A DNA stretch of 64,000 nt from Minisyncoccia bacterium (GCA_049303835.1 JBAQNN010000004.1:2784-66783), one strand, 5' to 3'; shown: positions 35,964 through 47,696, counted from the first letter of the stretch. Program-made: numbers and translations. The notes: generated from the sequence alone by a model not told the origin.

Positions 35964-36149
35964 TTACACTAAATTTGCCCCGCACTTCTGGCAGAAGTAA
36001 TCTTCTAATGGTTCTAGGGGGTTATTGTTGTCATCAACATTAATTATAATGTTTTCAAGGAAAATGGTTCCAAATTCACCACATTTATCGCATTTAAAAT
36101 AAAGTTTTCTACTAGTATTTAAAGGTGTTATTTCTATTGGTTTAATCAT
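35964..36149 (-). CDS. Small zinc-ribbon protein
   Basis: CDKC...CQKC. Confidence 0.35.
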   Translation of the reverse strand: MIKPIEITPLNTSRKLYFKCDKCGEFGTIFLENIIINVDDNNNPLEPLEDYFCQKCGANLV

Positions 36150-36542
36150 ATTTTGATTATATCATTTCTATTCCTTAACCCTAACCCGTTTAGGTCGGGT
36201 TTCTAATTAAGAAGATGGCCAACCATCGGACATAAACCGAGAGTTTTTGCAGTAGTTTTGCGACAAGTTTGGTTGCCTTGATAGAGATATAATATCTATA
36301 TATTACAGCCTTAAATATAGCTTGAATCATTAAGTATGATATTTTAGTTGTGTAAAAACTATCACATAACCATCGACCACAAAAAAATAAAATATTCTTT
36401 ATAATTAACGTTTTTACTTACTTTTGTACCAAAAAATATGTTTTATAAAAAGCACGCTTTTATATCCTTTATTTATAAAGCTTAAAACATAAACATAAAA
36501 AGTGTTTTACAAAACTCTCTATTATTTTGCTATACTTTCAAC

Positions 36543-37202
36543 ATGTCTTTAGATAGAAAGAAAGAAAAATTTATCCCTATGTATTCAATCCCCTTAAAGG
36601 AGGGTACATATTTAAAGATAAGGCCTTCTGCCAATGCTTGGTGGAAAGATCAGACTAAGACACAAAGACTTATGGCTCTTTTCTATGTAGGCGTATCAGC
36701 AGCAGAAGCTCGCAGGAATATCGGTATTAGTAAAAGAAAATATGATTATTTTATAAAAATACATCCAGAGGTTCCCGAAATACAGAAGCAGTATAAAGAT
36801 GAAATTTTTATACTTGCCACTAAGACAGTAAGAAACAGGGCATTAAGTGATCCTGCATGGGCATTAAAGTATTGGGTTAAAAAAGAACCTGAAGAATTTC
36901 GTCCTCCTCGTTTACTTAAAGAAATAAAACTAATGAAGATAGAGTTAAAAAAAGACCAAGAGGAATATCGAGATGAGGTAAGAATTTTAAAGAGAATAAT
37001 TGGAGCTTATAGAGAAGCTATCGATTATAAAAAAGGAAAATATAATGTAAATTATTTAAAGAAAATTGATAAAATGATAATTTATTACAATAGACAAAAT
37101 CGAGGAGCGAGAATAGAAAGGTTTAAAGAATTAGAGGCTTTGGAAATAAAGAGACAGAAACCAAATTCAGAGCAAAGTGGATTCCCAGGTTTTAATAATT
37201 AA
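36543..37202 (+). CDS. Basic HTH-containing protein (phage terminase-small-subunit/transposase-HTH-like), tentative
   Basis: VGVSAAEARRNIGISKRKY HTH-like segment; highly basic. Confidence 0.3.
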   Translation: MSLDRKKEKFIPMYSIPLKEGTYLKIRPSANAWWKDQTKTQRLMALFYVGVSAAEARRNIGISKRKYDYFIKIHPEVPEIQKQYKDEIFILATKTVRNRALSDPAWALKYWVKKEPEEFRPPRLLKEIKLMKIELKKDQEEYRDEVRILKRIIGAYREAIDYKKGKYNVNYLKKIDKMIIYYNRQNRGARIERFKELEALEIKRQKPNSEQSGFPGFNN

Positions 37203-37229
37203 TCTTATAACTAAGCACTAATTAATATC

Positions 37230-37610
37230 CTACTCAGTGGGAAATACACCAACATAAGAATTGCCGAAATCATCTTTACAAGACACTTTCCAATCGTAGA
37301 AGTCGTCGGAATGAATAACGTGTTTCTCTGTCGCACTTTTCGCTGATGTTGTTTCTATATACGGAATTACCCCACTACCACCATTATAATTCCAAGTACA
37401 AATCGATGAGTTTCCACTCGGAATTGATAACGAATAACCGTCTTCGCCATCGTAGAATGTCCCTACTTGTATGCTTGTTGCTTTAATTTCTGTATTTGCT
37501 TTTACATCTATCGTTGGGTCGCGAACATCACTATTTTTACTAAACCAATATATACCCCCTGCGATTATCATTATCGCGATGATTCCATTTTTTAATTGCT
37601 TGTTTTCCAT
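37230..37610 (-). CDS. Small secreted protein
   Basis: Signal anchor. Confidence 0.35.
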   Translation of the reverse strand: MENKQLKNGIIAIMIIAGGIYWFSKNSDVRDPTIDVKANTEIKATSIQVGTFYDGEDGYSLSIPSGNSSICTWNYNGGSGVIPYIETTSAKSATEKHVIHSDDFYDWKVSCKDDFGNSYVGVFPTE

Positions 37611-38060
37611 AATTATTTATTGCTTACTTTCTTTTTATTAAATCGTTGGATTAATAATGTAATTGCTAAAGCAATAAAAACCATCGGTACATTTACAAAA
37701 CTAGGAAACAAAATTGCTAGAGCTGCTCCGATCCCAAAAACTATTAATAGTTGCTTATTTTCTGGTTTCATTTCTTATTTTCTTTTGCGCTTAGTAATAA
37801 GCTACCCGAGATAAGACGCAAAAAGCCCATCACGGGTAGTAGCTTGCGCCACTCATATAGGTTTCCCTATACGGCCAGTAACGACGACCCCATGACGGGT
37901 TCTTTATGCGTTACTGGACTTGTGACCATACCCTAAACGAATTTAGGGGTTAGGTCGCCTTATTAACTTGTAATGAGATTATACCTCCTTTTGGAAGGCT
38001 TGTGTAGCTTAGCTTCCTTTCAAACTAATGCGTAGTGGAGTTATCCACACTTATAATATT

Positions 38061-38861
38061 CTACAAAGTGGTACCAGCAGCCCAACGGGTATTAAAATTC
38101 TGAGTTAAAGTTTTCCTTATATCTTTACCAAATTGATCTGGGATCATAACTATAAGCGATTCTTTACTACCTAAGTCTATTAACCCGTGTCCTATAATTA
38201 AGAATCTATCTTTCGATAAGATATATCTGTCATGAAAATCCCTTGTATTGATCAGACGAATTTCAATCTTTGTTGCAGGGTATTGTTTTTTAAAATGTGT
38301 AATTGCAGTAGTAAGTGCTGTTATTTTCTCTCTTGAACCTTTCTCGCGTGTAAGGAATCTTATTTTAGGATGATATTTAATAAATTCTTCTAAAACATCT
38401 AGAGAGCGGACACCGTAATATGGATCACATATTAATAATTCTCCTTTAGGAATTGATTTAACCAGTTGTTCTAAATTTTGAGTCGCTTCTCTTGGTTTCT
38501 TAGGGTCAATACACACGACATTCAATAGGCCATCTTTTCTAAGACCTTTTAAATGTTTTTCTCCAATAATACTAATTTTTATTCCCTTACCATCTTTTCC
38601 CTTACTAAGCTTGGTGCCGTAGGCAGGAGCCATAGCTTTTTTTAATTTTGTTAATCTAATCGGAATATCTAAATAAGTATCAAGAATGGTTTCAATTTCT
38701 TCGTAAGTTAAATATTCGTTAGAAAATTCATGTTTACTTACATACAGACACCAGAGGCCTAAATCAAGTAATTTTTTTGTTCCAATATCATACACTGAAG
38801 GTATTTCTGTTTGTTTTTTATTTACTGAACCCCACTTTTTCTTTTCGGTGTTTAGAGCCAT
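38061..38861 (-). CDS. Hypothetical island protein with degenerate PLD-like (HxR/K...D...GS) motif, tentative
   Basis: FHDRYILSKD...GHGLIDLGSKE motif. Confidence 0.3.
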   Translation of the reverse strand: MALNTEKKKWGSVNKKQTEIPSVYDIGTKKLLDLGLWCLYVSKHEFSNEYLTYEEIETILDTYLDIPIRLTKLKKAMAPAYGTKLSKGKDGKGIKISIIGEKHLKGLRKDGLLNVVCIDPKKPREATQNLEQLVKSIPKGELLICDPYYGVRSLDVLEEFIKYHPKIRFLTREKGSREKITALTTAITHFKKQYPATKIEIRLINTRDFHDRYILSKDRFLIIGHGLIDLGSKESLIVMIPDQFGKDIRKTLTQNFNTRWAAGTTL

Positions 38862-38867
38862 CTTGTT

Positions 38868-39299
38868 TTAAGAGAAAATATTCATCCAAGTATTTCTAAG
38901 GTGATAAGTTCCATGCTTCTTAGAATCAACCCACCCTGAAGTTTTTGCTGTGACTGAGTAATAAAGATTAAATTTATAACCTAATAAATCTTTCCCCGTC
39001 ATCTTGCTCCATTTTGTGCTTATTGCACTCATTTCTACGTCAACATTAGTCCTACCTTTTGCCATAAATGCAAGCAAAAGAGTAAATTTCTTTGGCCCGC
39101 TCATTCCCTTAGCGTAAGTTTTTATAAAATTTCTCTCATTAAGCGAAAAATCTACATTAGATACAGCGGATCTCTCACCCTTCTTTTTTACTCTATTTGA
39201 GATTAGAATTTTTCCGGATGCAGACTCTAGAGCGTCAAGACAGGTATTAATAATTTTTTGTGCTTTTTTTAATTCAAAAACAATCTCTTCTTTTTTCAT
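38868..39299 (-). CDS. Hypothetical island protein
   Basis: ORF only. Confidence 0.35.
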   Translation of the reverse strand: MKKEEIVFELKKAQKIINTCLDALESASGKILISNRVKKKGERSAVSNVDFSLNERNFIKTYAKGMSGPKKFTLLLAFMAKGRTNVDVEMSAISTKWSKMTGKDLLGYKFNLYYSVTAKTSGWVDSKKHGTYHLRNTWMNIFS

Positions 39300-39302
39300 A
39301 TC

Positions 39303-39638
39303 TTATTTTCTTTTTACATATACCTTCTGACCTGATTCTTCAAGAGCAGTTAAAAAACCCTTTTTATCAGAAAGTCTATTTAAGGTTGTTTGCACAACCG
39401 ATATCTTGTAATGATAATCATTCTTTGCAAGTTCCTCTAATACTTCTCGCGCTGTATGTTTTTTAGAAAAATAATTTTTAGATACAAGAAATAAAACACC
39501 TCCTTTTGTTCCAGTAAAATTGATGCTACTAGAAGCAGGAGTTACTACCTTCTTTTTACCTTTGGGAAAGACAAAAGTCTCAAGTCTATCTAGGCGTTTC
39601 AGTATATTAATTATTTCTTTGTTTATTTTATCCGACAT
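39303..39638 (-). CDS. Small basic protein with wHTH-like C-terminus (paralogous architecture to next gene)
   Basis: Start taken at MSDKIN. Confidence 0.35.
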   Translation of the reverse strand: MSDKINKEIINILKRLDRLETFVFPKGKKKVVTPASSSINFTGTKGGVLFLVSKNYFSKKHTAREVLEELAKNDYHYKISVVQTTLNRLSDKKGFLTALEESGQKVYVKRK

Positions 39639-40002
39639 ATAGCCAACGCTTTTTATCTTTAATCCTTCGCAACTCACGCTTACGTACCAGACGAAGCACT
39701 GTCGATGAAAGAGTGGTAACTGGATAATAGTGGCCATGTTCTTCCAGGGCAATCTTGATCACACCAAGCTCTTTGGGTTTTTTAAAAAAACCACCATCAA
39801 TTAATTCTGCAATCAAGGTTGCGGGTGTTGGCTTGGAAGGAGTTTTCCCACTCGGTTTCATTTTTTGAAAAACAGGTTTTTCTTTATTCCTGCTGGGAGA
39901 TATGCCACCCTGAATTTGAACGATCAGCTCAGCAACCTCCCTAGGAGTTCCTTCTACTGTTATTGTTGCACCATTTTTATTTTTTATATTTGCTTTAGCC
40001 AT
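39628..40002 (-). CDS. Small basic protein with wHTH-like C-terminus
   Basis: Lys/Pro-rich linker followed by a predicted wHTH. Confidence 0.35.
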   Translation of the reverse strand: MAKANIKNKNGATITVEGTPREVAELIVQIQGGISPSRNKEKPVFQKMKPSGKTPSKPTPATLIAELIDGGFFKKPKELGVIKIALEEHGHYYPVTTLSSTVLRLVRKRELRRIKDKKRWLYVG

Positions 40003-40151
40003 GTATTCACTTATTCAAGTATACTAAGTATATATGAATAAGTGAATAAAGTCAAGGCATTTTCTGATTATTATACAAGATAGTAATTTACCATAAAGTT
40101 ATCCACTCATTCACTAGACTTAATAAGTGTTCAGAGTATGTTGTGTGTTGT

Positions 40152-41474
40152 ATGGATAATACACAAACATATGGGGCTCAGATAGGGTTTCCGGCGTTCG
40201 TAGCCCAAGAGCAGATTAAATACTGCCTATATGCTCGTAAATCAAGCGAGGCGGAAGAAAAACAAGCTCTTTCAGTAGATTCTCAAATAAAAGAAATGCT
40301 CACGGTGGCACAAAGAGAGAACCTTAATATTGTTGATATGTATAGAGAATCCCATTCCGCCAAGGATTGTGGACAGCGTCCAGTTTTCAATAAGCTTCTA
40401 GTTGATATTCGTGAAGGAAAATTTAACGGAATAATGGTGTGGCACCCAGACAGATTGAGTCGAAACGCCGGCGACCTTGGAGCAATTGTTGATCTTCTAG
40501 ATCAAAAGAAATTAATTGAAATCAGAACTTATAGTCAGAGGTTCACAAATAATCCAAATGAAAAATTCTTACTAATGATTCTTGGATCACAAGCAAAACT
40601 TGAGAATGATAATAAAAGTGTAAATGTAAAACGTGGACTTAAAGCAAAATGTGAAATGGGACTATGGCCTTCAGTTGCACCTACGGGTTATCTAAACTCA
40701 AAAAATAAAGACCAGCCCGGAGTTGTATTTGTAGATCCTATACGAGCACCCATCATGAAAGAAATATTTGTAAAAGTTGGTCATCAAGGTTGGAGCGGAA
40801 GAAAAGTATTTAGATGGCTTAATGAAATAAAATTTGTTACTAAGACTGGGAAAGCGCTCACTCTTAGTAATGTTTATATTATTTTAAATAATAATTTTTA
40901 TCACGGTACTTTTGAATACCCAAAAGGTAGTGGCAGATGGTTTTTAGGTAAGCACATTCCACTTATCAGTAAAGACTTATTCGATGACACACAGAAACAG
41001 CTTCACCTACAGTTAAGATCTCATGTGAGAAATAAGGAGTTCGCTTTTACCAAGATGTTAACCTGCGGTAATTGTGGCTCTGGAGTAACAGCACAAGAAA
41101 AATACAAAACACTAAAAGATGGCACAGTTAATAAATATATCTATTATGGTTGCACTAGAGCAAGAGATATTAATTGCAAAGAAGGGTATATCGAGGAAAA
41201 AATATTAATTAGTAATCTTTTAGAAATCATAAATCAAATTGATTTAGATAAATCTGGGATCAAGAAAAAGCTTGAGGTAGAAATTGAGCGACATAAGAAA
41301 TTCCATTCGGGCATCATGGGTAAACCAAAAGAAGAGTATTCAGCTCAGGATGCTGATATAAGAAATTATGCCAAATACTTACTTACTGACGGATCAGTAT
41401 TTGAAAAGAGAGACTTATTGGGATGTTTAAAAAGTAAAATAGAGTTAAAAAATAAGAAGATTAATATTACTTAA
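40152..41474 (+). CDS. Large serine recombinase (resolvase catalytic domain, recombinase domain and Zn-ribbon)
   Basis: YARKSSEAEEKQALSVDSQ catalytic Ser region; CGNCGS zinc ribbon; coiled-coil tail. Confidence 0.85.
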   Translation: MDNTQTYGAQIGFPAFVAQEQIKYCLYARKSSEAEEKQALSVDSQIKEMLTVAQRENLNIVDMYRESHSAKDCGQRPVFNKLLVDIREGKFNGIMVWHPDRLSRNAGDLGAIVDLLDQKKLIEIRTYSQRFTNNPNEKFLLMILGSQAKLENDNKSVNVKRGLKAKCEMGLWPSVAPTGYLNSKNKDQPGVVFVDPIRAPIMKEIFVKVGHQGWSGRKVFRWLNEIKFVTKTGKALTLSNVYIILNNNFYHGTFEYPKGSGRWFLGKHIPLISKDLFDDTQKQLHLQLRSHVRNKEFAFTKMLTCGNCGSGVTAQEKYKTLKDGTVNKYIYYGCTRARDINCKEGYIEEKILISNLLEIINQIDLDKSGIKKKLEVEIERHKKFHSGIMGKPKEEYSAQDADIRNYAKYLLTDGSVFEKRDLLGCLKSKIELKNKKINIT

Positions 41475-42618
41475 TCTTTAAGATCGATTCAGTAGTCTTG
41501 TCATAAGAATAATTAACGATCTCACCTTTGATGATCAAATCAATCGCACTTCCGATCACCATAATTGGAGCAATGAACCACTCCTTTGGAATATAATTTT
41601 TTCCATGATTGTCAGTGATCTCAATGTCTAAACATGAATCACTAAAAAAGCGATGTATTAATCTCTCGAATCTTTGAGGGTTCATATTAAAGCATTTATA
41701 TGTAGCAACAATAGAAACTGGAGCCATAAGATAAGTAGGGTCTTGAATTGCATTTTTTATACGATCTTCAATACTAGTAGTCGAAAAGCCAATTTTGAAA
41801 AGATTTTTTGCACTAGCAATTCTAGGGTTATCACTTAAAGATTTTAGAACATATATATATCCAGTTTCTAAATCTTCATCTTCAATATTATTAATATTTT
41901 GCAAATCAGTAATTATTCTTCCTTGGTTAGCATGCAAACCATCAACAAGTGAGCGTAAAAACATATTAGATTCTGTACCGTTTTCAAAAATAATTCTTAA
42001 TCTAGAGTTAAATTTTCTTTGTTCATTTTTTGCAAGATTCCCAATATCTTGAACAAGTCCAACTAGTCCGCCTAAAACAAAGAAAGTTCCTATTTTAATT
42101 TGAGTTCTGTTTTCGAATGGAATTATTACTTTTTTCTTTTCATGCAAAAGATTTCTCATTTCGTTAAACACTTGTTCGAACTTTGAAAAATCAGAACAGG
42201 GTTTTCTTCGCGCAATAAAATCCGCAGTGTTAACTATTTTTCTTTGCGGAACATTCTTTATATTAAAAACAGAACTATCTTCAATAGAAAGTAGATCTAA
42301 GTCATCGTCTTCAAAAATATCACTTACTGTATCAATATCTTTTTTTTCAATCTTTAAAAGACCATGAGTATCATACTTACTTAGAAAGTCCCTTTGTTCC
42401 TTATTTTCTCTGATGTGTTTAAGACGTGATGCGAGCTTATGTTCATGAATATCTCCACCACTCTTTGGTTCAGTGTTGTGCAACGAAAAGAACTCATTTA
42501 TTTCCATAAATGATTCTGATAGCCGATCATCAGGTGTAGCAGAAACAGCCTTCTTGTCTATATCAAGAAGTCCTAAATCGTCATCGTTTATTAAATCTAG
42601 TAAATCGTTTTTATTCAT
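41467..42618 (-). CDS. T5orf172 (GIY-YIG-like) domain protein with tandem acidic DDDLGLLDI N-terminal motifs
   Basis: GYIYVLKS...FKIGFSTTSIEDRIKNA; last gene of the tightly coupled operon. Confidence 0.55.
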   Translation of the reverse strand: MNKNDLLDLINDDDLGLLDIDKKAVSATPDDRLSESFMEINEFFSLHNTEPKSGGDIHEHKLASRLKHIRENKEQRDFLSKYDTHGLLKIEKKDIDTVSDIFEDDDLDLLSIEDSSVFNIKNVPQRKIVNTADFIARRKPCSDFSKFEQVFNEMRNLLHEKKKVIIPFENRTQIKIGTFFVLGGLVGLVQDIGNLAKNEQRKFNSRLRIIFENGTESNMFLRSLVDGLHANQGRIITDLQNINNIEDEDLETGYIYVLKSLSDNPRIASAKNLFKIGFSTTSIEDRIKNAIQDPTYLMAPVSIVATYKCFNMNPQRFERLIHRFFSDSCLDIEITDNHGKNYIPKEWFIAPIMVIGSAIDLIIKGEIVNYSYDKTTESILKIK

Positions 42619-42619
42619 A

Positions 42620-44566
42620 TTAACTATTTAAATTATCTGTCTTAATCTTTATAAGATAAAGCCTTGCTTCTCCAAGCCTCTTTTCTAGAGGGTCAGAAGA
42701 ATTATGGTCAGGATTTCTTCCTGTACGTTTCTTGAATTCATTCATTTTTGGCCATAGAATTTTAACCTCCTCTGGAGTCATTTCAATTCGCGAAGAATCA
42801 ATAGTATCTTGAATGACTTTAAGAATACTCGATGTGACCGATTTTGAAAGTATTTCAAAAGCTTCTTGAAATGGATTAATTTTGTCGATAAGGTCAATAT
42901 TAAGTTCATCTATATTTACAAACTGTCCTGCCATTCTTACGAATTTCTTATCTCCAACTTCTTTGATTTCTCCGTTCTTGATCACAGAATCGACTACAAC
43001 ATGCTGACGCACTTCCTCAACTTCAAGATCGGTAAGATCAGGATATTTCATTTGAATAATCTTCGGGATCATCACTTTGTTTATTACCTCAGGGTCAACA
43101 TTTCCAGGCAAAGCCTTAATCATCTGATCATCCTGAAGAATTGAAGCTTTTAGATCGTTGATATCAGAATCAATAATCTCACGAACTCGATCAGTGCTTG
43201 GAGCCTTAAATCCGTTTACTTTGATTTCACCTGGAGTAAAGGCTGTGTCGTCATTTGGGAATCGTGGCTTGAAGTTGTAGTGCGGAGCCATGACTTGTTC
43301 CATAAGTAAAGAACAAGTAATAGCTTTCAACATGTTATTTACCGACACCTTAACTTCTCCATCTTTTGCATCTGGTTGTGCGATGAGGTTTGTAAACTGT
43401 GCGTGTTTTTTATTTGCACTATCACGAGTACAACGACCAATGATCTGAATAATTTCAGTAAGTGAACTACGGTAGCCGATAGTTAAAGCATGTTCACAGT
43501 ACGGCCAATCAAAACCTTCTTTTGCCATACCAAGAGCAATAATGATGTCCATATCCTCCTCCTTTTTCATTGTGCGGAGATAGTTTGAAATCTTTTCACG
43601 ATGCTTCGAATCATCTTCAACAAGATTTGCTATTTTTAGAATTTTTCCATCACGATCACGCCTGATTGTGTAAACTCCAGTTTCTTCGTCTACGCTAACT
43701 GTTGATCCGTCACCAATGATATCAAGTATCATGTTTACTTCTTGATATTTATCTTTCATAGACTCACCTGCGTTTACGTTTGGAATGTGAACAATAGTTT
43801 TTTTATCTGTATCTAAAACTTCCGCAATAGCAGAGATGTACTTACCTTGGTAAAAGTGATATCCAATGCCCAAGGTCTTTAAATAGGTGTAGCCATTCAA
43901 TTGCTGATAGTAGTTGTATGTTACTTTCTGAAACTTTGCCTCATCTTGTGGTAACAATATCGCAACACCATCTCCTCGGAAGTATGATCCTGTCATCGCA
44001 ATAATATGCGCGTTTGAGTTTGTCATTATTCCATGCAAAACTCGTCCTAAAATACTGCTTTCTTTATCAGCAGCTACATGATGAAATTCGTCGATAGCTA
44101 GTAGGGTATCATTAAATTTAAGGTCTTCAATTTGCTCGCAAGCAAATCTTAGTGTTGCGTGAGTACAAATAAGAATCTTCTCGTCGTTATCCATAAAATT
44201 CTTGAATGCTTCAACTTTGCCTTTGGCATTATCAAGACCTGGAGTACAGAGGTTGTAATTATCGTTGGGTTTCCAGTCAGCGAAGAATCCACCTTGAGTT
44301 AGGTTTGTTTCACTGAAAGATCCACCAATAGATTTTTCAGGAACGGCAACGATAACCTTTTTGATTCCTTGATTAGCAAGTTTGTCTAAAGCAAGAAACA
44401 TCAATGCTCTTGATTTTCCAGATGCAGGGGGTGCTTTCAAAAGGAGGTATTGAGCACCTCTTTTCTCAAATGCTTTTGCCTGCATTTCACGCATACCAAG
44501 TTCATTGAGTTTGGTACTTTGTCCTGTTTGCGCGTATGTTGCTTCTGCTACTTGAATTGTTTTCAT
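42620..44566 (-). CDS. SF2 DEAD/DEAH-box helicase (Type III res-subunit-like ATPase)
   Basis: Motif I PPASGKS, motif II DEFHH, motif VI QIIGRCTR. Confidence 0.8.
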   Translation of the reverse strand: MKTIQVAEATYAQTGQSTKLNELGMREMQAKAFEKRGAQYLLLKAPPASGKSRALMFLALDKLANQGIKKVIVAVPEKSIGGSFSETNLTQGGFFADWKPNDNYNLCTPGLDNAKGKVEAFKNFMDNDEKILICTHATLRFACEQIEDLKFNDTLLAIDEFHHVAADKESSILGRVLHGIMTNSNAHIIAMTGSYFRGDGVAILLPQDEAKFQKVTYNYYQQLNGYTYLKTLGIGYHFYQGKYISAIAEVLDTDKKTIVHIPNVNAGESMKDKYQEVNMILDIIGDGSTVSVDEETGVYTIRRDRDGKILKIANLVEDDSKHREKISNYLRTMKKEEDMDIIIALGMAKEGFDWPYCEHALTIGYRSSLTEIIQIIGRCTRDSANKKHAQFTNLIAQPDAKDGEVKVSVNNMLKAITCSLLMEQVMAPHYNFKPRFPNDDTAFTPGEIKVNGFKAPSTDRVREIIDSDINDLKASILQDDQMIKALPGNVDPEVINKVMIPKIIQMKYPDLTDLEVEEVRQHVVVDSVIKNGEIKEVGDKKFVRMAGQFVNIDELNIDLIDKINPFQEAFEILSKSVTSSILKVIQDTIDSSRIEMTPEEVKILWPKMNEFKKRTGRNPDHNSSDPLEKRLGEARLYLIKIKTDNLNS

Positions 44567-44570
44567 AGTA

Positions 44571-47249
44571 TTATTGGTTAGTTTTTCTAGTAATCATTTC
44601 TTCGTAAAGTTTAAACAAGTGGGCTAGTCGATCCTCGTCACTTTCAAATGGTTTACTTCGGTATATTTGATCAATAGCGAGATCTAAATATTTGTGAGCT
44701 TCCCGTAGTCCATCTGGCATCTTATCTGGATCATATAGGTCTGCCATCGTCTTTTCTGGATATTTCTCACGCTCTTCAAGAATGTTGTATACATGACTAG
44801 TGAGCGACTCTTTTTGTTTAGGTGTTATCTCAGGAAAAGGAAAATTATTGTACACAATATCCTTTGAATAACTCAATCTTGTTTCGAACTTTCCTCCTAC
44901 TGCTCTAACCCATGCCATATGCATTCTTGAAGTAATGACACTAAACAAATATAAATTTTCCGCTGGTACAATGTAACAACTATCCGTGATAATTGAATCC
45001 TTGCCTGCTATACCAATTGGAATATATTGTCTCCTTTCGGAAGAAACACGAGGAACAAAAATATAATCAATACTTTCTTTTTGAGTAATTTGTGCAAACA
45101 AATGAGGGATATTTGCAAGTTTCGGCCTTGAAGATGCTAACCTAATCTTCTCTACACTATCAACAATCTTTTTAATGGCAGGTATGTCCTTAAGTTTACT
45201 AAGGGCATCATTCTTCATCCATAAACAATAACGACTTCCGCCATTTAAAAAAGTATCAGAAGTTACTAATTTTTTAATATATTTTTGTGATCTTGGTTCA
45301 GTTGCTAAAAAAGAATCTTTCTCCTGGGTTGATAAAATCAATTTACCTCCATCTGCTGCCATGTTTCCAAAGTTTATTTCAGGGAAAGATGAGAGTGGTT
45401 TACTTCTTGAGTGCACAAAGATTGTCTTTCCTTCAACTAAATAAGGATTGATTTCCTTAGCGTTAACATATTGATGCTCTGTATATATACGTTTATTTTT
45501 AAAACCTGGATTCGACAGTCCAATAATTACACATGTTACACCCGCATTTCCCTTAGCAAGATTTTTCCATTTAAAAGATTGGTAACCAAAAATTATCTCG
45601 ACATTTTGTTTAAAAATAAGTGGCCACAACATGGAAACCTGTTCTCCTTGTGTCACAGAATTAGTAGAAACTAATGCTCCTTTAATTAAATTGAATCCTG
45701 ATATATATTGAGCCATTTTAAAATACCAAATAGACACATAATCTAGAGATTTATACAATCGTGTATTATTCTTAAAAACAAACTCAATATCAGATTTTTG
45801 CTCTTCTTTTTGCTTTCTAGAACCTTCAAATGGAGGATTACCGACAACATATATCTCGTGTTCTCCAACAGTTTGATCTCTACGAGGACAAACTTCATTC
45901 CAATCCACTCGTGTCGCATTGGCGCAAACAATCTTTCCGCTCTCTTTAAGAGGAAGTGTTGCTTTCATAATTCCAAACATTCCGTCAAAATACTGGTTCA
46001 TCTGGTGCTGAGCTAACCAAAGTGAAAGTCGTGCGATCTCATGTGCAAAGTCATCTATTTCTATTCCGTAAAATGAATTTAGCGAAACCCCTGAATACGA
46101 CATCATTTGATGTCCGAGGTCTTTGGCGTAACTAATTATTTTTGACTCTAACTTCGAGAGTTCTTTATAGGAAATAATAAGAAAATTACCTGATCCACAA
46201 GCAGGGTCAAAAATCTTAATTTTTGAAACTCTTTCACGAAGTTTTGTAAGTTTCTTAATATCATTCTTTGAATTTTCCAATTCCTCATAAAGATCATTCA
46301 AAAAGAGAGGTTCAATGACTTTCATTATATTGGGAACAGAAGTGTAGTGCATTCCCAAGTTTTCTCGTTGACCAGGATGAACAACAGCCTGAATCATAGA
46401 TCCAAAAATATCTGGGTTAATTGAACTCCAATCCAACTTTCCACATTCAATAATTAGTTTTCGTGAACTTGCGGTAAATGTTGGTAATTTAATCTTACTT
46501 TCAAAAAGACCTCCGTTTACATATGGAAATTCCAAGAAATGTGACGCGAATTTCGATCGATCAGAATCTTTAGTATTTAAAATATCAAAAAGTGTAGAAA
46601 AGTAAGTATCCATCTCGTCTCCATTTTCGTGAGTGTGAGATGTTACAGAATTAGTAAACATTCCTGTTGTAGGGAATATGCCCGTATCTTCAGCAAAGAA
46701 ACAGAATAAAAGACGTGAAAGAAATATGTTTAGATCGTGACTGTTGTTTTTATAGTATTCAGGATCGTCGCTTACAATTGCCTGATACAACTTATCCATT
46801 TTGTAGGCGGCACGAATATCAGCAGGATTTTCATTTACATGTTGAGATTTTTCCATTCCACACCATGGCAAGAAGAATGCATAGTGTTTACCAAGATCTT
46901 CGATTTGAATATCAAGTGTTTCTTTTGTTTTTGTATCAATTGCCAAAAATGTTACAAAATCCGTAACAATAATAAAACGTGGGTTGAACTTGTATGAACT
47001 CTTGTCTTTTTGAAAAATATCAATAGCGACATGCTCGTCTTCTTCGAGGGTAGTTATATGGAAAAGTACCTTGTTCTTTAAGATAATTTGATCATTCTTG
47101 CCAGATAATTTAGAAGGATTTTTAGACAGCAAAGAAATGGTGCTTTTCGGCAATTCATACACTGAAAGCAGATCAAAGATAAACGATTCTTTGGAAAAGT
47201 TTTGACTTAGATTTTCAAGATTTTCTTGTAAGGTTGCTAAATTGATCAT
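44571..47249 (-). CDS. MmeI-family Type IIL restriction-modification enzyme (N-terminal PD-DxK nuclease, gamma-class N6A MTase, TRD)
   Basis: RLLFCFFAEDTGIF, FPYVNGGLFE, IFDPACGSGNFL (motif I), VVGNPPF (motif IV), STNSVTQGEQVSMLWP. Colinear with MmeI (recalled from memory, no alignment run). N-terminal D-x8-DTK. Confidence 0.8.
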   Translation of the reverse strand: MINLATLQENLENLSQNFSKESFIFDLLSVYELPKSTISLLSKNPSKLSGKNDQIILKNKVLFHITTLEEDEHVAIDIFQKDKSSYKFNPRFIIVTDFVTFLAIDTKTKETLDIQIEDLGKHYAFFLPWCGMEKSQHVNENPADIRAAYKMDKLYQAIVSDDPEYYKNNSHDLNIFLSRLLFCFFAEDTGIFPTTGMFTNSVTSHTHENGDEMDTYFSTLFDILNTKDSDRSKFASHFLEFPYVNGGLFESKIKLPTFTASSRKLIIECGKLDWSSINPDIFGSMIQAVVHPGQRENLGMHYTSVPNIMKVIEPLFLNDLYEELENSKNDIKKLTKLRERVSKIKIFDPACGSGNFLIISYKELSKLESKIISYAKDLGHQMMSYSGVSLNSFYGIEIDDFAHEIARLSLWLAQHQMNQYFDGMFGIMKATLPLKESGKIVCANATRVDWNEVCPRRDQTVGEHEIYVVGNPPFEGSRKQKEEQKSDIEFVFKNNTRLYKSLDYVSIWYFKMAQYISGFNLIKGALVSTNSVTQGEQVSMLWPLIFKQNVEIIFGYQSFKWKNLAKGNAGVTCVIIGLSNPGFKNKRIYTEHQYVNAKEINPYLVEGKTIFVHSRSKPLSSFPEINFGNMAADGGKLILSTQEKDSFLATEPRSQKYIKKLVTSDTFLNGGSRYCLWMKNDALSKLKDIPAIKKIVDSVEKIRLASSRPKLANIPHLFAQITQKESIDYIFVPRVSSERRQYIPIGIAGKDSIITDSCYIVPAENLYLFSVITSRMHMAWVRAVGGKFETRLSYSKDIVYNNFPFPEITPKQKESLTSHVYNILEEREKYPEKTMADLYDPDKMPDGLREAHKYLDLAIDQIYRSKPFESDEDRLAHLFKLYEEMITRKTNQ

Positions 47250-47252
47250 AAA

Positions 47253-47459
47253 TTATTTAAAAAGCTCATCAACTGGAACTTTTAAAGCTTTCGCTAGATT
47301 GGCAATTGTTGAAAGTGTTGGATTGTTTTTTCCGTTTTCAATATTACTAACGAAAGACTTATCTACATTGAGAGTCTCGGCAAGTTCTGTCTGAGTAATA
47401 TTTTTCTTAGTTCTAATCTTCTTGAGATTTTCTCCTAGTTTTTTAGCATCATCTTTCAT
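47253..47459 (-). CDS. XRE-family HTH regulator (C-protein/controller-like)
   Basis: QTELAETLNVDKSFVSNIENGK HTH. Confidence 0.8.
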   Translation of the reverse strand: MKDDAKKLGENLKKIRTKKNITQTELAETLNVDKSFVSNIENGKNNPTLSTIANLAKALKVPVDELFK

Positions 47460-47625
47460 AAAAAGATTATATCATAAATAGTTGTATTAAACTACAACAA
47501 AAAATCACCACTTTGTTAATGGTGATTTTTTGCTCTGAATACTGCACTCAGCAGGTATGTCGTGACTGCATAGGTATCTGTTTAGTTTCTGACCCCTCTA
47601 GGTCCATCGATACTAAACTAGACTG

Positions 47626-47696
47626 CTGGGAGACTTGGATTCGAACCAAGATATCATCCTCCAGAGGGATGAGTCCTACCATTAGACGATCTCCCA
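47626..47696 (-). tRNA. tRNA-Gln (anticodon CUG)
   Basis: Hand-folded cloverleaf: U1-A72 acceptor, T-loop TTCGAAT, anticodon loop CTCTGGA. Confidence 0.75.

What the first reader, a model, noticed from the sequence alone, without database searches (positions are those of the whole stretch)
41467..47459. Tightly coupled four-gene operon: XRE controller, MmeI-family Type IIL RM enzyme, SF2 helicase, T5orf172 protein
The four minus-strand genes are separated by 3, 4 and 1 bp, which indicates translational coupling and one functional unit. MmeI-family enzymes are normally solitary single-chain R-M proteins that need no helicase. Here an apparently intact one is locked to a res-like SF2 helicase and a T5orf172/GIY-YIG-like protein. 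The MmeI-family enzyme has a D-x8-DxK nuclease motif, all gamma-class MTase motifs and a TRD. The T5orf172 protein has an N-terminal duplicated acidic DDDLGLLDI motif. The unit is fronted by a C-protein-like XRE regulator. This arrangement resembles a split Type ISP or a BREX/PglX-like logic (PglX is MmeI-related). I cannot match it to any described system. It sits on a recombinase-bearing island next to tRNA-Gln.
Basis: partly seen in the sequence, partly recalled or inferred. Interest (0 to 1): 0.8.

Follow-up and report, generated by a model that had tools for sequence, protein, structure and literature searches.

The report
Known YeeA-YeeB-YeeC restriction-modification cassette
The four-gene operon is real and works as one unit, but it is a new example of a gene trio described in 2009 (an MmeI-like methyltransferase without its own nuclease site, plus a helicase and a GIY-YIG nuclease), not an undescribed system.

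Summary
The four minus-strand ORFs, their 3/4/1-bp gaps and their domain assignments are confirmed. One key detail is wrong. The MmeI-like protein does not carry MmeI's nuclease catalytic residues: D70/E80/K82 of MmeI align with Q54/H64/T66.

That makes the protein a member of the second group of MmeI homologues of Morgan et al. 2009, typified by B. subtilis YeeA/DnmA. Those authors reported that this group is invariably flanked by a DEAD-type helicase (YeeB) and a GIY-YIG/T5orf172 protein (YeeC), and proposed a Type I-like restriction-modification system.

My own neighbourhood test agrees. Of 80 helicase relatives from more than 10 phyla, 72/72 with room have the T5orf172 gene just downstream, and 64/64 have the MmeI-like gene upstream.

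The XRE gene is an optional add-on. In candidate-phyla-radiation (CPR) bacteria, the XRE gene, the trio and a convergent large serine recombinase form a cassette of about 7.4 kb inserted next to tRNA genes.

Most likely function: an ATP-dependent, hemimethylating restriction-modification defence. This is inferred; there is no biochemistry.

Novelty: new member of a known kind. Interest is low to moderate.

The parts
47253..47459 (-). XRE-family (HTH_3) small regulator of 68 aa. It is a candidate controller (C-protein-like) and ends 3 bp before the methyltransferase gene.
   Evidence: ORF. Pfam HTH_3, E 7e-19. PADLOC HTH_VI and RM 'Control_protein' models, E 1e-10 to 1e-12. The same 68-aa gene sits at the same position in L117/L118. 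It is absent from most distant loci.
47466..47498 (-). Candidate promoter and operator of the operon. An extended -10 box, TGATATAAT, lies at 47474-47466, 6 nt before the ATG, so the transcript is probably leaderless. A 6-bp inverted repeat, GTTGTA-N6-TACAAC, lies at 47481-47498.
   Evidence: Sequence. Inverted repeat I6. The pattern is unique in the window, with 0 expected by chance. The block is identical in L117/L118 while the flanks differ. Function is inferred.
47498..47532 (-). 13-nt perfect inverted repeat (AAAAAATCACCA...TGGTGATTTTTT), a terminator-like hairpin between tRNA-Gln and the operon promoter.
   Evidence: I1. Related cassettes carry a hairpin of different sequence at the same place (AAAAGCAAGTCA...TGACTTGCTTTT).
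44571..47249 (-). YeeA/DnmA-type MmeI homologue of 892 aa. From N to C terminus: a degenerate restriction-endonuclease-like N domain with no ExK, a helical spacer, a gamma-class N6-adenine methyltransferase, an MmeI-type target recognition domain (TRD) and a C-terminal helical domain.
42620..44566 (-). YeeB-type SF2 DExH helicase/translocase of 648 aa. Walker A (GKS), DEFHH, TGS and QxxGRxxR motifs are intact. A conserved non-helicase C-terminal region spans about residues 430-648.
   Evidence: Pfam ResIII/DEAD/Helicase_C. Invariant motifs across 28 diverse homologues. The family has 388 clusters (at 50% identity) with E<1e-30. Only remote matches to solved structures.
41467..42618 (-). YeeC-type T5orf172 (GIY-YIG superfamily) protein of 383 aa, the predicted nuclease subunit. 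The N-terminal region carries acidic 'DDxLGLL' motifs, followed by a beta-rich middle domain and a C-terminal GIY-YIG domain.
40143..41474 (+). Large serine recombinase, convergent with the operon. Its 3' end overlaps the T5orf172 gene by 8 bp. It is the likely mobility gene of the cassette.
   Evidence: Pfam Resolvase+Recombinase+Zn_ribbon_recom. The same convergent 8-bp overlap occurs in L001 and L117. tblastn hits occur only in CPR loci.
47625..47696 (-). tRNA-Gln(CTG). The cassette begins about 120 bp downstream of its 3' end, so this is the probable integration site.
   Evidence: ARAGORN. Homology with L117 ends at 47502. Related cassettes lie just downstream of tRNA-Glu (five cases, including L117) or tRNA-Ser (one case).

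Best explanation
This is a YeeA(DnmA)-YeeB-YeeC-type, three-component, Type I-like or 'split Type ISP-like' restriction-modification system. In this copy it is preceded by an optional XRE controller and carried on a serine-recombinase cassette of about 7.4 kb next to tRNA-Gln in a CPR (Minisyncoccia) genome.

Shown here:
- The 892-aa protein has an intact gamma-class N6-adenine methyltransferase and an MmeI-type TRD, but no PD-ExK catalytic residues.
- The helicase has all its ATPase/translocase motifs.
- The T5orf172 protein keeps the conserved GIY-YIG-type residues.
- The three genes are essentially always neighbours in this order.

Inferred mechanism:
1. The methyltransferase-TRD subunit recognises a short asymmetric site and methylates one adenine on one strand, marking host DNA.
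2. Its degenerate N-terminal domain serves as a docking platform rather than a nuclease.
3. On unmethylated sites it recruits or activates the DExH motor, which uses ATP to translocate.
4. The GIY-YIG subunit cuts the DNA.
5. The XRE protein, made from a probably leaderless transcript with an inverted-repeat operator over the promoter, sets the timing and level of expression when the cassette enters a new host.
6. The serine recombinase moves the cassette.

The confidence given is for the whole statement. Membership in the YeeA-YeeB-YeeC class alone I put at about 0.9; the inferred ATP-dependent restriction mechanism at about 0.6.
For: Identity of the methyltransferase subunit:
- phmmer against PDB aligns the window protein to MmeI only from residue 87/105 onward.
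- MAFFT and HHalign place MmeI D70/E80/K82 opposite Q54/H64/T66.
- The family consensus at these positions is E/K/gap, and 0 of 53 homologues have an acidic residue at the E80 position.

Synteny:
- T5orf172 lies downstream in 72/72 loci and the MmeI-like gene upstream in 64/64, across Patescibacteria, Bacteroidota, Proteobacteria, Actinomycetota, Firmicutes, Chlamydiae, Planctomycetes, Campylobacterota and others.
- Twenty-four loci carry same-strand insertions between the methyltransferase and helicase genes. The ten inserted ORFs I scanned against Pfam include RhuM, Fic, Schlafen/AlbA_2, Abi_C and an extra helicase.

Intact motifs.

TRD behaviour: the TRD region is the part that has no detectable nucleotide-level match to L001, while the N-terminal 330 aa stay 85-95% identical among close relatives. 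That pattern suggests specificity turnover.

Literature:
- Morgan 2009 described exactly this group and proposed this mechanism. YeeA and MslORFHP showed no endonuclease activity when expressed alone.
- DnmA methylates GACGAG on one strand.
- yeeAB confers resistance to some phages in V. crassostreae.
- Synteny of DnmA with helicase and T5orf172 genes has been reported.

Cassette.
Against: - No biochemistry exists for any member. ATP dependence, translocation, and cleavage by the GIY-YIG subunit are all untested.
- In B. subtilis the trio gave no restriction of plasmids or of three phages.
- D97/D105/K107 of the N domain are highly conserved (47, 52 and 46 of 53), and their role is unexplained.
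- The helicase is only remotely similar to HsdR, Res or Type ISP motors (LlaBIII 18 bits), so the analogy is architectural and does not rest on homology.
- The operator and leaderless-transcript ideas rest on sequence inspection and on a few closely related copies.
Confidence: 0.7

Rival explanations
1. One reading: an intact, self-sufficient MmeI-type Type IIL restriction-modification enzyme has been newly coupled to a helicase and a T5orf172 protein, giving an undescribed system.
For: All five Pfam MmeI domains match, including MmeI_N. PADLOC calls the protein REase_MTase_IIG at 997 bits. A D...DxK-like string exists at residues 97-107.
Against: - The catalytic residues D70/E80/K82 align with Q54/H64/T66.
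- The D97...K107 string maps to the later strands beta4-beta5 and aligns with MmeI 115-125, where MmeI has no lysine.
- The arrangement was published in 2009.
Confidence: 0.04
2. A regulatory or orphan methyltransferase with relic partners. As argued for B. subtilis DnmA, the methyltransferase would act mainly in gene regulation and the helicase and nuclease would be non-functional leftovers.
For: No restriction or phage-defence phenotype was found for dnmA-yeeB-yeeC in B. subtilis. A 2026 preprint describes a Streptococcus mutans YeeA-motif methyltransferase as an orphan.
Against: - All three window genes are full length with intact catalytic motifs and 1-4 bp spacing.
- The helicase is 88-94% identical across many CPR lineages and the trio is universally syntenic. 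That indicates purifying selection on all three genes and recent horizontal spread as a unit.
- The trio sits on a mobile cassette with a controller gene.
- The Vibrio homologue defends against phage.
Confidence: 0.1
3. Dual-nuclease variant. The N-terminal domain of the methyltransferase subunit keeps a non-canonical active site (conserved D97/D105/K107, and E54/K64 in most relatives) and cuts together with the GIY-YIG subunit.
For: D97, D105 and K107 are conserved in 47, 52 and 46 of 53 homologues. E54 is present in 43 of 53. The domain keeps a restriction-endonuclease-like fold.
Against: - YeeA and MslORFHP expressed alone showed no endonuclease activity.
- The window's CPR clade has Q54/H64 although the rest of the system is intact.
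- In the AF2 model D97 lies in the turn after strand 92-96 and D105 at the far end of strand 100-105. That does not fit one metal site; this is inferred from the secondary structure only.
- MmeI itself keeps D115/D123 at these positions in addition to its true catalytic triad.
Confidence: 0.08
4. A selfish stabilisation module. The main role of the trio would be post-segregational killing that keeps the serine-recombinase cassette in the genome, with phage defence as a side effect.
For: Tight linkage to a serine recombinase and to tRNA-adjacent insertion in CPR genomes, with near-identical cassettes in several genomes. Controller proteins are typical of mobile restriction-modification systems; this last point rests on general knowledge of C proteins.
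Against: Outside CPR the trio occurs without the recombinase and is interleaved with abortive-infection and Fic/RhuM-type genes. This explanation is also compatible with the best explanation, because the mechanism would be the same.
Confidence: 0.1
5. Chance juxtaposition of unrelated genes on an island.
For: None beyond the location on an island.
Against: 72/72 and 64/64 synteny across phyla. Overlapping or 1-4 bp junctions.
Confidence: 0.005

Closest known systems
[quoted passage not shown] 2009 (NAR 37:5208). Also MslORFHP of Moraxella osloensis and yeeAB of Vibrio crassostreae.
   Same: An MmeI homologue lacking PD-ExK is followed by a DEAD/DExH helicase and then a T5orf172/GIY-YIG protein, in the same order and on the same strand. 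The location is a horizontally acquired low-GC region. The trio is present in Vibrio, Moraxella and Bacillus loci in my own scan (L045, L071, L050).
   Different: This copy is from a CPR (Minisyncoccia) genome. It has an XRE controller gene fused to the front of the operon and a convergent large serine recombinase, forming a compact tRNA-adjacent cassette. I could not make a direct pairwise comparison with the B. subtilis proteins.
MmeI / Type IIL (Type IIG) single-chain restriction-modification enzymes
   Same: Helical spacer, gamma-class N6-adenine methyltransferase, TRD and C-terminal helical domain (614 bits against 5HR4 over residues 87-886). The N domain has the same fold family. Methylation is probably on one strand.
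   Different: The catalytic residues D70/E80/K82 are replaced (Q54/H64/T66) and the first ~86 residues are divergent. The protein is always partnered with a helicase and a GIY-YIG protein, whereas true MmeI enzymes have no consistent neighbours.
Type ISP enzymes (LlaGI, LlaBIII)
   Same: The same set of activities: nuclease, SF2 motor, gamma methyltransferase and a single TRD for an asymmetric site. They are the likely mechanistic analogue (ATP-driven translocation from the site, then cleavage).
   Different: Here there are three separate polypeptides instead of one. The nuclease is GIY-YIG rather than Mrr-like PD-QxK. The helicase is only remotely related (18 bits). The gene order is methyltransferase, then motor, then nuclease.
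Type I restriction-modification systems (EcoKI, EcoR124I)
   Different: There is no HsdS: the TRD is fused and single. There is no HsdR: motor and nuclease are separate proteins and the nuclease is GIY-YIG. Hemimethylation of an asymmetric site is expected rather than a bipartite site.
BREX PglX and DISARM DrmMI methyltransferases
   Same: Distant homology of the methyltransferase and C-terminal regions (PADLOC DrmMI 116 bits, PglX about 30 bits; NCBIfam PglX 35 bits against a cut-off of 500).
   Different: All scores are far below family thresholds. The cassette has no PglZ, BrxC, BrxL, DrmA, DrmB or DrmC partner. The helicase does not match the DrmA/DrmD models.
C-protein-controlled Type II restriction-modification systems
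   Same: A small XRE/HTH protein is encoded first and is translationally coupled to the system. It matches the PADLOC 'Control_protein' models. An inverted repeat overlaps the promoter and the start is probably leaderless.
   Different: The operator is a single 6-bp-arm inverted repeat, and it is untested. The regulator is present in only a minority of YeeABC loci, and different HTH families occupy that position.

Membership tests
MmeI family, Type IIL single-chain restriction-modification enzyme | N-terminal PD-ExK catalytic residues aligned with MmeI D70, E80 and K82 | tested here: not met
   MAFFT and HHalign give Q54/H64/T66. 0 of 53 helicase-linked homologues have an acidic residue at the E80 position. 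phmmer does not align residues 1-86.
MmeI family, Type IIL single-chain restriction-modification enzyme | Gamma-class N6-adenine methyltransferase, MmeI-type TRD and C-terminal helical domain | tested here: met
   Pfam MmeI_Mtase 345 bits, MmeI_TRD 242 bits, MmeI_C 82 bits. 614 bits against 5HR4. FDPACGSGNFL and NPPF motifs present.
MmeI family, Type IIL single-chain restriction-modification enzyme | Stand-alone gene with no conserved partner genes, and ATP-independent cleavage at 20/18 | tested here: not met
   The partner genes are conserved in 72/72 and 64/64 loci. The cleavage chemistry itself cannot be tested with these tools.
YeeA(DnmA)-YeeB-YeeC three-gene system (Morgan 2009 group 2) | MmeI homologue similar over most of its length but lacking the PD-ExK motif and divergent in the first ~100 residues | tested here: met
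   JGI annotates a 76%-identical homologue as 'YeeA'.
YeeA(DnmA)-YeeB-YeeC three-gene system (Morgan 2009 group 2) | DEAD/DExH SF2 helicase gene immediately downstream | tested here: met
   4-bp gap. Pfam ResIII/DEAD/Helicase_C. GKS, DEFHH and QxxGRxxR motifs invariant.
YeeA(DnmA)-YeeB-YeeC three-gene system (Morgan 2009 group 2) | GIY-YIG/T5orf172 protein gene next | tested here: met
   1-bp gap. Pfam T5orf172 and MUG113. Present downstream of the helicase in 72/72 loci.
YeeA(DnmA)-YeeB-YeeC three-gene system (Morgan 2009 group 2) | Direct sequence homology to B. subtilis YeeA, YeeB and YeeC | not tested
Indirect support only: the trio in Bacillus mediterraneensis (L050), Vibrio (L045) and Moraxella (L071) has a helicase 63-64% identical to the window helicase.
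Type ISP restriction-modification enzymes | Single polypeptide with Mrr-like nuclease, SF2 motor, methyltransferase and TRD | tested here: not met
   Three separate ORFs. The nuclease candidate is GIY-YIG. The helicase profile scores 18 bits against LlaBIII and LlaGI.
Type I restriction-modification systems | Separate HsdS specificity subunit and HsdR (nuclease plus motor in one protein) | tested here: not met
   The TRD is fused to the methyltransferase. There is no HsdS- or HsdR-like ORF among the cassette's five genes.
BREX / DISARM | PglX with PglZ and BrxC, or DrmMI with DrmA, DrmB and DrmC | tested here: not met
   PADLOC and NCBIfam scores are far below cut-offs. The cassette of about 7.4 kb contains only the XRE gene, the trio and the recombinase.
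C-protein-controlled restriction-modification system | Small HTH regulator upstream with cognate C-box operators that control its own promoter | tested here: inconclusive
   The HTH_3 protein matches the PADLOC Control_protein models. A single inverted repeat and an extended -10 box lie upstream and are conserved in close relatives. Binding and regulation cannot be tested here.

The most novel reading that the evidence does not exclude
In candidate-phyla-radiation bacteria the YeeABC trio has been packaged with an XRE controller and a large serine recombinase into a self-integrating cassette of about 7.4 kb. The cassette inserts just downstream of tRNA genes (Gln, Glu, Ser) and has recently swept across many CPR lineages, and by source annotation into Izemoplasmatales and Woesearchaeota.

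Its subunits may assemble through features not described before. The helicase C-terminus and the YeeC N-terminus share a helical module of about 45 aa. YeeC also carries repeated acidic 'DDxLGLL' peptide motifs that resemble the SSB C-terminal tail (that resemblance is my own recollection, not tested).
Probability: 0.4. Interest if true: 0.45.

Novelty: new member of a known kind. Interest (0 to 1): 0.3.

Why it matters
The YeeA-YeeB-YeeC class is widespread: the helicase family has 388 clusters at 50% identity with E<1e-30, found in more than 10 phyla. It has been recognised since 2009, yet none of the papers I found reports any biochemistry on the helicase or nuclease subunits. Whether it is an ATP-dependent restriction-modification type that uses a GIY-YIG nuclease and single-strand methylation remains open.

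This window adds an intact, compact, controller-equipped copy on a mobile cassette from a CPR bacterium. That makes it a convenient construct for cloning, and it shows that these reduced-genome organisms exchange restriction-modification cassettes.

It also gives a practical warning. Pfam MmeI_N and the PADLOC 'REase_MTase_IIG' model match these proteins even though the nuclease catalytic residues are missing. Automated annotation therefore over-calls them as complete restriction enzymes.

Tried and rejected
- An exact look-up of the window helicase found no record. The source was inferred from a 100%-identical T5orf172 protein annotated as Minisyncoccia and a 100%-identical 3.8-kb Logan contig.
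- A search for att-type direct repeats flanking the island found only short, chance-level repeats. That is expected for a serine recombinase.
- phmmer against PDB found nothing for the helicase and only noise for T5orf172.
- PADLOC and NCBIfam give no named system for the helicase or T5orf172 protein. The weak PbeA, Cas3, DndF-like, RadD and PDC-S57 hits were rejected as generic SF2 or GIY-YIG similarity.
- BREX, DISARM and MADS were considered because of weak PglX, DrmMI and mad2 hits. They were rejected on scores and on the absence of partner genes.
- The viral-contig scan found about 21 good helicase relatives. Their context was not analysed further.
- The metagenome scan for the operator was selected by the exact pattern. 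It therefore cannot be used as evidence that the operator is conserved, only to locate insertion sites.
- Later literature searches for a newer name or a biochemical characterisation of this trio found none.
Full report
**1. Observation**

The region holds four tightly packed minus-strand ORFs:
- 47253-47459, 68 aa
- 44571-47249, 892 aa
- 42620-44566, 648 aa
- 41467-42618, 383 aa

They are separated by 3, 4 and 1 bp. Pfam assigns them as follows:
- HTH_3 (XRE), E 7e-19.
- All five MmeI domains: MmeI_N 79 bits, MmeI_hel 84, MmeI_Mtase 345, MmeI_TRD 242 and MmeI_C 82.
- ResIII/DEAD/Helicase_C.
- T5orf172/MUG113.

tRNA-Gln lies at 47625-47696. A large serine recombinase lies at 40143-41474 on the + strand, and its 3' end overlaps the T5orf172 gene by 8 bp. 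The duplicated acidic motif in the T5orf172 protein is real (DDDLGLLDI at 12-20, DDDLDLLSI at 104-112) and is conserved in the family.

**2.

- MmeI's experimentally supported catalytic residues are D70, E80 and K82 (Morgan 2009). I verified the MmeI N-terminal sequence against PDB 5HR4.
- phmmer aligns the window protein to MmeI only from residue 87 (MmeI 105) onward.
It aligns with MmeI D115...D123-L-I, downstream of the catalytic hairpin.
- MAFFT and an HHalign of 53 helicase-linked homologues against MmeI 1-151 both place MmeI E80/K82 opposite window H64/T66. HHalign places D70 opposite Q54.
- Across the 53 homologues these columns read E/K/gap, and none has an acidic residue at the E80 position.
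- An AlphaFold2 model of residues 1-330 has pLDDT 85-94 over residues 10-130. It keeps the hairpin (strands 54-57 and 61-65) and later strands at 92-96, 100-105 and 111-115.

The N domain is therefore a degenerate PD-(D/E)xK fold without the ExK site. D97/D105/K107 are nevertheless strongly conserved (47, 52 and 46 of 53), and their role is unexplained. In the model D97 sits in a turn and D105 at the far end of the next strand, which does not look like a single metal site. That is an inference from the secondary structure only.

**3. What it is**

This is exactly the 'second group' of MmeI homologues of Morgan et al. 2009 (PMC2731913).
- That group lacks the PD-ExK motif, differs in the first ~100 residues, and is 'invariably located next to' a DEAD-family helicase (YeeB-like) and a GIY-YIG protein (YeeC-like).
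- The authors proposed a Type I-like system with single-strand modification.

Later work adds the following:
- YeeA was renamed DnmA. It makes m6A at GACGAG on one strand. Neither plasmid restriction nor defence against three phages was seen in B. subtilis (PMC7261158; PMC9973331).
- The 2023 paper also reports conserved synteny of DnmA with helicase and T5orf172 genes.
- yeeAB gave resistance to a phage subclade in Vibrio crassostreae (bioRxiv 10.1101/2021.05.05.442762).
- The Type ISP literature mentions related restriction-modification enzymes with helicase subunits and GIY-YIG nucleases.
- JGI annotates a 76%-identical homologue as 'YeeA'.

**4. Independent neighbourhood test**

- The helicase family is distinct and moderately large: 388 clusters (at 50% identity) have E<1e-30. 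GKS, DEFHH, TGS and QxxGRxxR are invariant in 28 diverse members.
- A scan of one genome per species returned 80 loci at 59-83% identity. They come from Patescibacteria, Bacteroidota, Proteobacteria, Campylobacterota, Actinomycetota, Firmicutes, Chlamydiae, Planctomycetes, Leptospiraceae and others.
- tblastn with the window proteins shows a T5orf172 homologue within 500 bp downstream in 72/72 loci that have room. An MmeI-like gene lies upstream on the same strand in 64/64.
- In 40 loci the methyltransferase and helicase genes abut. In 24 they are separated by 0.5-6 kb of same-strand genes. The ten inserted ORFs I scanned include RhuM, Fic, Schlafen/AlbA_2-HATPase_c_4, Abi_C and an extra helicase. 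From my own recollection, not checked here, genes of these kinds are also found inside Type I operons.
- Chance juxtaposition is excluded.

**5. Partner proteins**

- The T5orf172 protein has invariant G253, Y256, K275, G277, R286 and E346. These fit the GIY/(Y)IG/R/E pattern of GIY-YIG nucleases; the assignment of roles rests on general knowledge of that superfamily.
- The helicase has only remote relatives with solved structures: LGP2/MDA5, XPB, RadD, and LlaBIII/LlaGI at 18 bits.
- PADLOC v2 and NCBIfam do not assign either partner to a named system.

**6. Regulator and mobility**

- The XRE gene is not a general feature. Small HTH genes that abut or overlap the methyltransferase start occur in about 8 of roughly 56 loci, and they belong to different HTH families.
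- In close CPR relatives (L117/L118) the same five-gene unit is present: XRE, methyltransferase, helicase, T5orf172 and a convergent serine recombinase with the same 8-bp overlap.
- Nucleotide homology between the window and L117 stops exactly at 47502.
- Upstream of the XRE start, an extended -10 box (TGATATAAT) ends 6 nt before the ATG. A GTTGTA-N6-TACAAC inverted repeat covers the -35 region. Both are identical in L117/L118 while the flanks differ. A leaderless, autoregulated C-protein-like arrangement is a reasonable inference but is untested.
- Five further cassettes found by pattern scan lie just downstream of tRNA-Glu (four) or tRNA-Ser (one), and L117 also lies after tRNA-Glu. The window copy lies about 120 bp after tRNA-Gln.
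- The serine recombinase is linked to the trio only in the CPR clade.
- The window's source is probably a Minisyncoccia MAG.

**7. Mechanism (best estimate)**

Shown: intact methyltransferase and TRD, an intact motor, conserved GIY-YIG residues, and obligate synteny.

Inferred:
1. The methyltransferase-TRD subunit binds an asymmetric site and hemimethylates it.
2. On unmodified sites it engages the DExH motor through its degenerate N domain.
3. ATP-driven translocation delivers or activates the GIY-YIG nuclease.
4. Discrimination of self from non-self for a hemimethylated asymmetric site would need communication between two sites. This is by analogy with what is proposed for MmeI and shown for Type ISP enzymes.

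The TRD region has no detectable nucleotide-level match to L001, while the N-terminal 330 aa stay 85-95% identical among close relatives. That pattern is typical of specificity turnover in restriction-modification systems.

**8. Verdict**

The operon is real and is a single unit. However, it is a new, well-preserved CPR member of a described though biochemically uncharacterised class. The claim of an intact MmeI nuclease is wrong.

Interest is low to moderate. The open questions are the actual cleavage mechanism of this class, the role of D97/D105/K107, and the newly noticed shared helical module and acidic motifs.

Noticed in passing
window 42632-42763 (helicase residues 602-645) and 42391-42519 (T5orf172 residues 34-76): The C-terminal ~45 aa of the helicase and an N-terminal helical segment of the T5orf172 protein look homologous (HHalign of family alignments: probability 81%, E 1.2e-5). 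They may form a shared interaction module between the two partners.
   Followed up: partly
window 41467-42618 (T5orf172 protein residues 11-19, 85-88, 104-110): Three acidic-hydrophobic '(D)DDxLGLL / HGLL' motifs are conserved family-wide. They lie in regions that AF2 predicts as disordered. They resemble the acidic SSB C-terminal tail (from memory, untested), so they could be docking peptides for the helicase or methyltransferase.
   Followed up: partly
loci L004, L008, L013, L019, L041, L042, L051, L055, L059 and others, between the MmeI-like and helicase genes: In 24 of 64 loci, 0.5-6 kb of same-strand genes sit inside the operon. The ten inserted ORFs I scanned include RhuM, Fic (with HTH), Schlafen/AlbA_2-HATPase_c_4, Abi_C and an extra SF2 helicase. 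One of the ten (L008, 426 aa) has no Pfam match.
   Followed up: partly
window 40143-47502; L117 5747-13062; L118; L119-L123: The XRE gene, the trio and the convergent serine recombinase form a conserved cassette of about 7.4 kb in CPR genomes. It is inserted ~80-120 bp downstream of tRNA-Gln, tRNA-Glu or tRNA-Ser. In L123 the cassette-side sequence GTAGGGTCACA appears to replace the tRNA 3' end.
   Followed up: partly
window 47498-47532 versus L117/L119-L123 upstream regions: A terminator-like hairpin lies immediately upstream of the operon promoter in all cassettes, but with a different stem sequence (AAAAAATCACCA/TGGTGATTTTTT here, AAAAGCAAGTCA/TGACTTGCTTTT elsewhere). The structure is conserved rather than the sequence.
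   Followed up: no
window 40006-40046: A perfect 12-nt inverted repeat (TTCACTTATTCA N17 TGAATAAGTGAA) lies about 100 bp upstream of the serine recombinase start, near the presumed other end of the cassette. It could be a recombinase site or a terminator.
   Followed up: no
window 36000-40002: A low-GC stretch (0.30-0.35, against about 0.40 in the flanks) holds several small ORFs with no Pfam match. It has no homology to the related cassettes. It may be a second, unrelated insertion adjacent to the cassette.
   Followed up: no
protein hits P0360 and P0474 (Candidatus Woesearchaeota), P0057 and P0479 (Izemoplasmatales): Homologues 65-88% identical to the trio's proteins are annotated by their sources as coming from DPANN archaea and from Izemoplasmatales. 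If the binning is correct, this suggests recent transfer across domains or phyla.
   Followed up: no
L001 10699-13488; L116 1035-1934: Related cassettes sit among other defence genes: Thoeris-like ThsB_TIR and ThsA_Macro genes in L001 and an Mrr-family Type IV enzyme in L116. These are defence-island contexts.
   Followed up: no
L083-L103 (IMG/VR viral contigs): About 21 contigs labelled viral encode helicase relatives at 44-70% identity. Whether these are prophage-borne copies of the trio was not examined.
   Followed up: no
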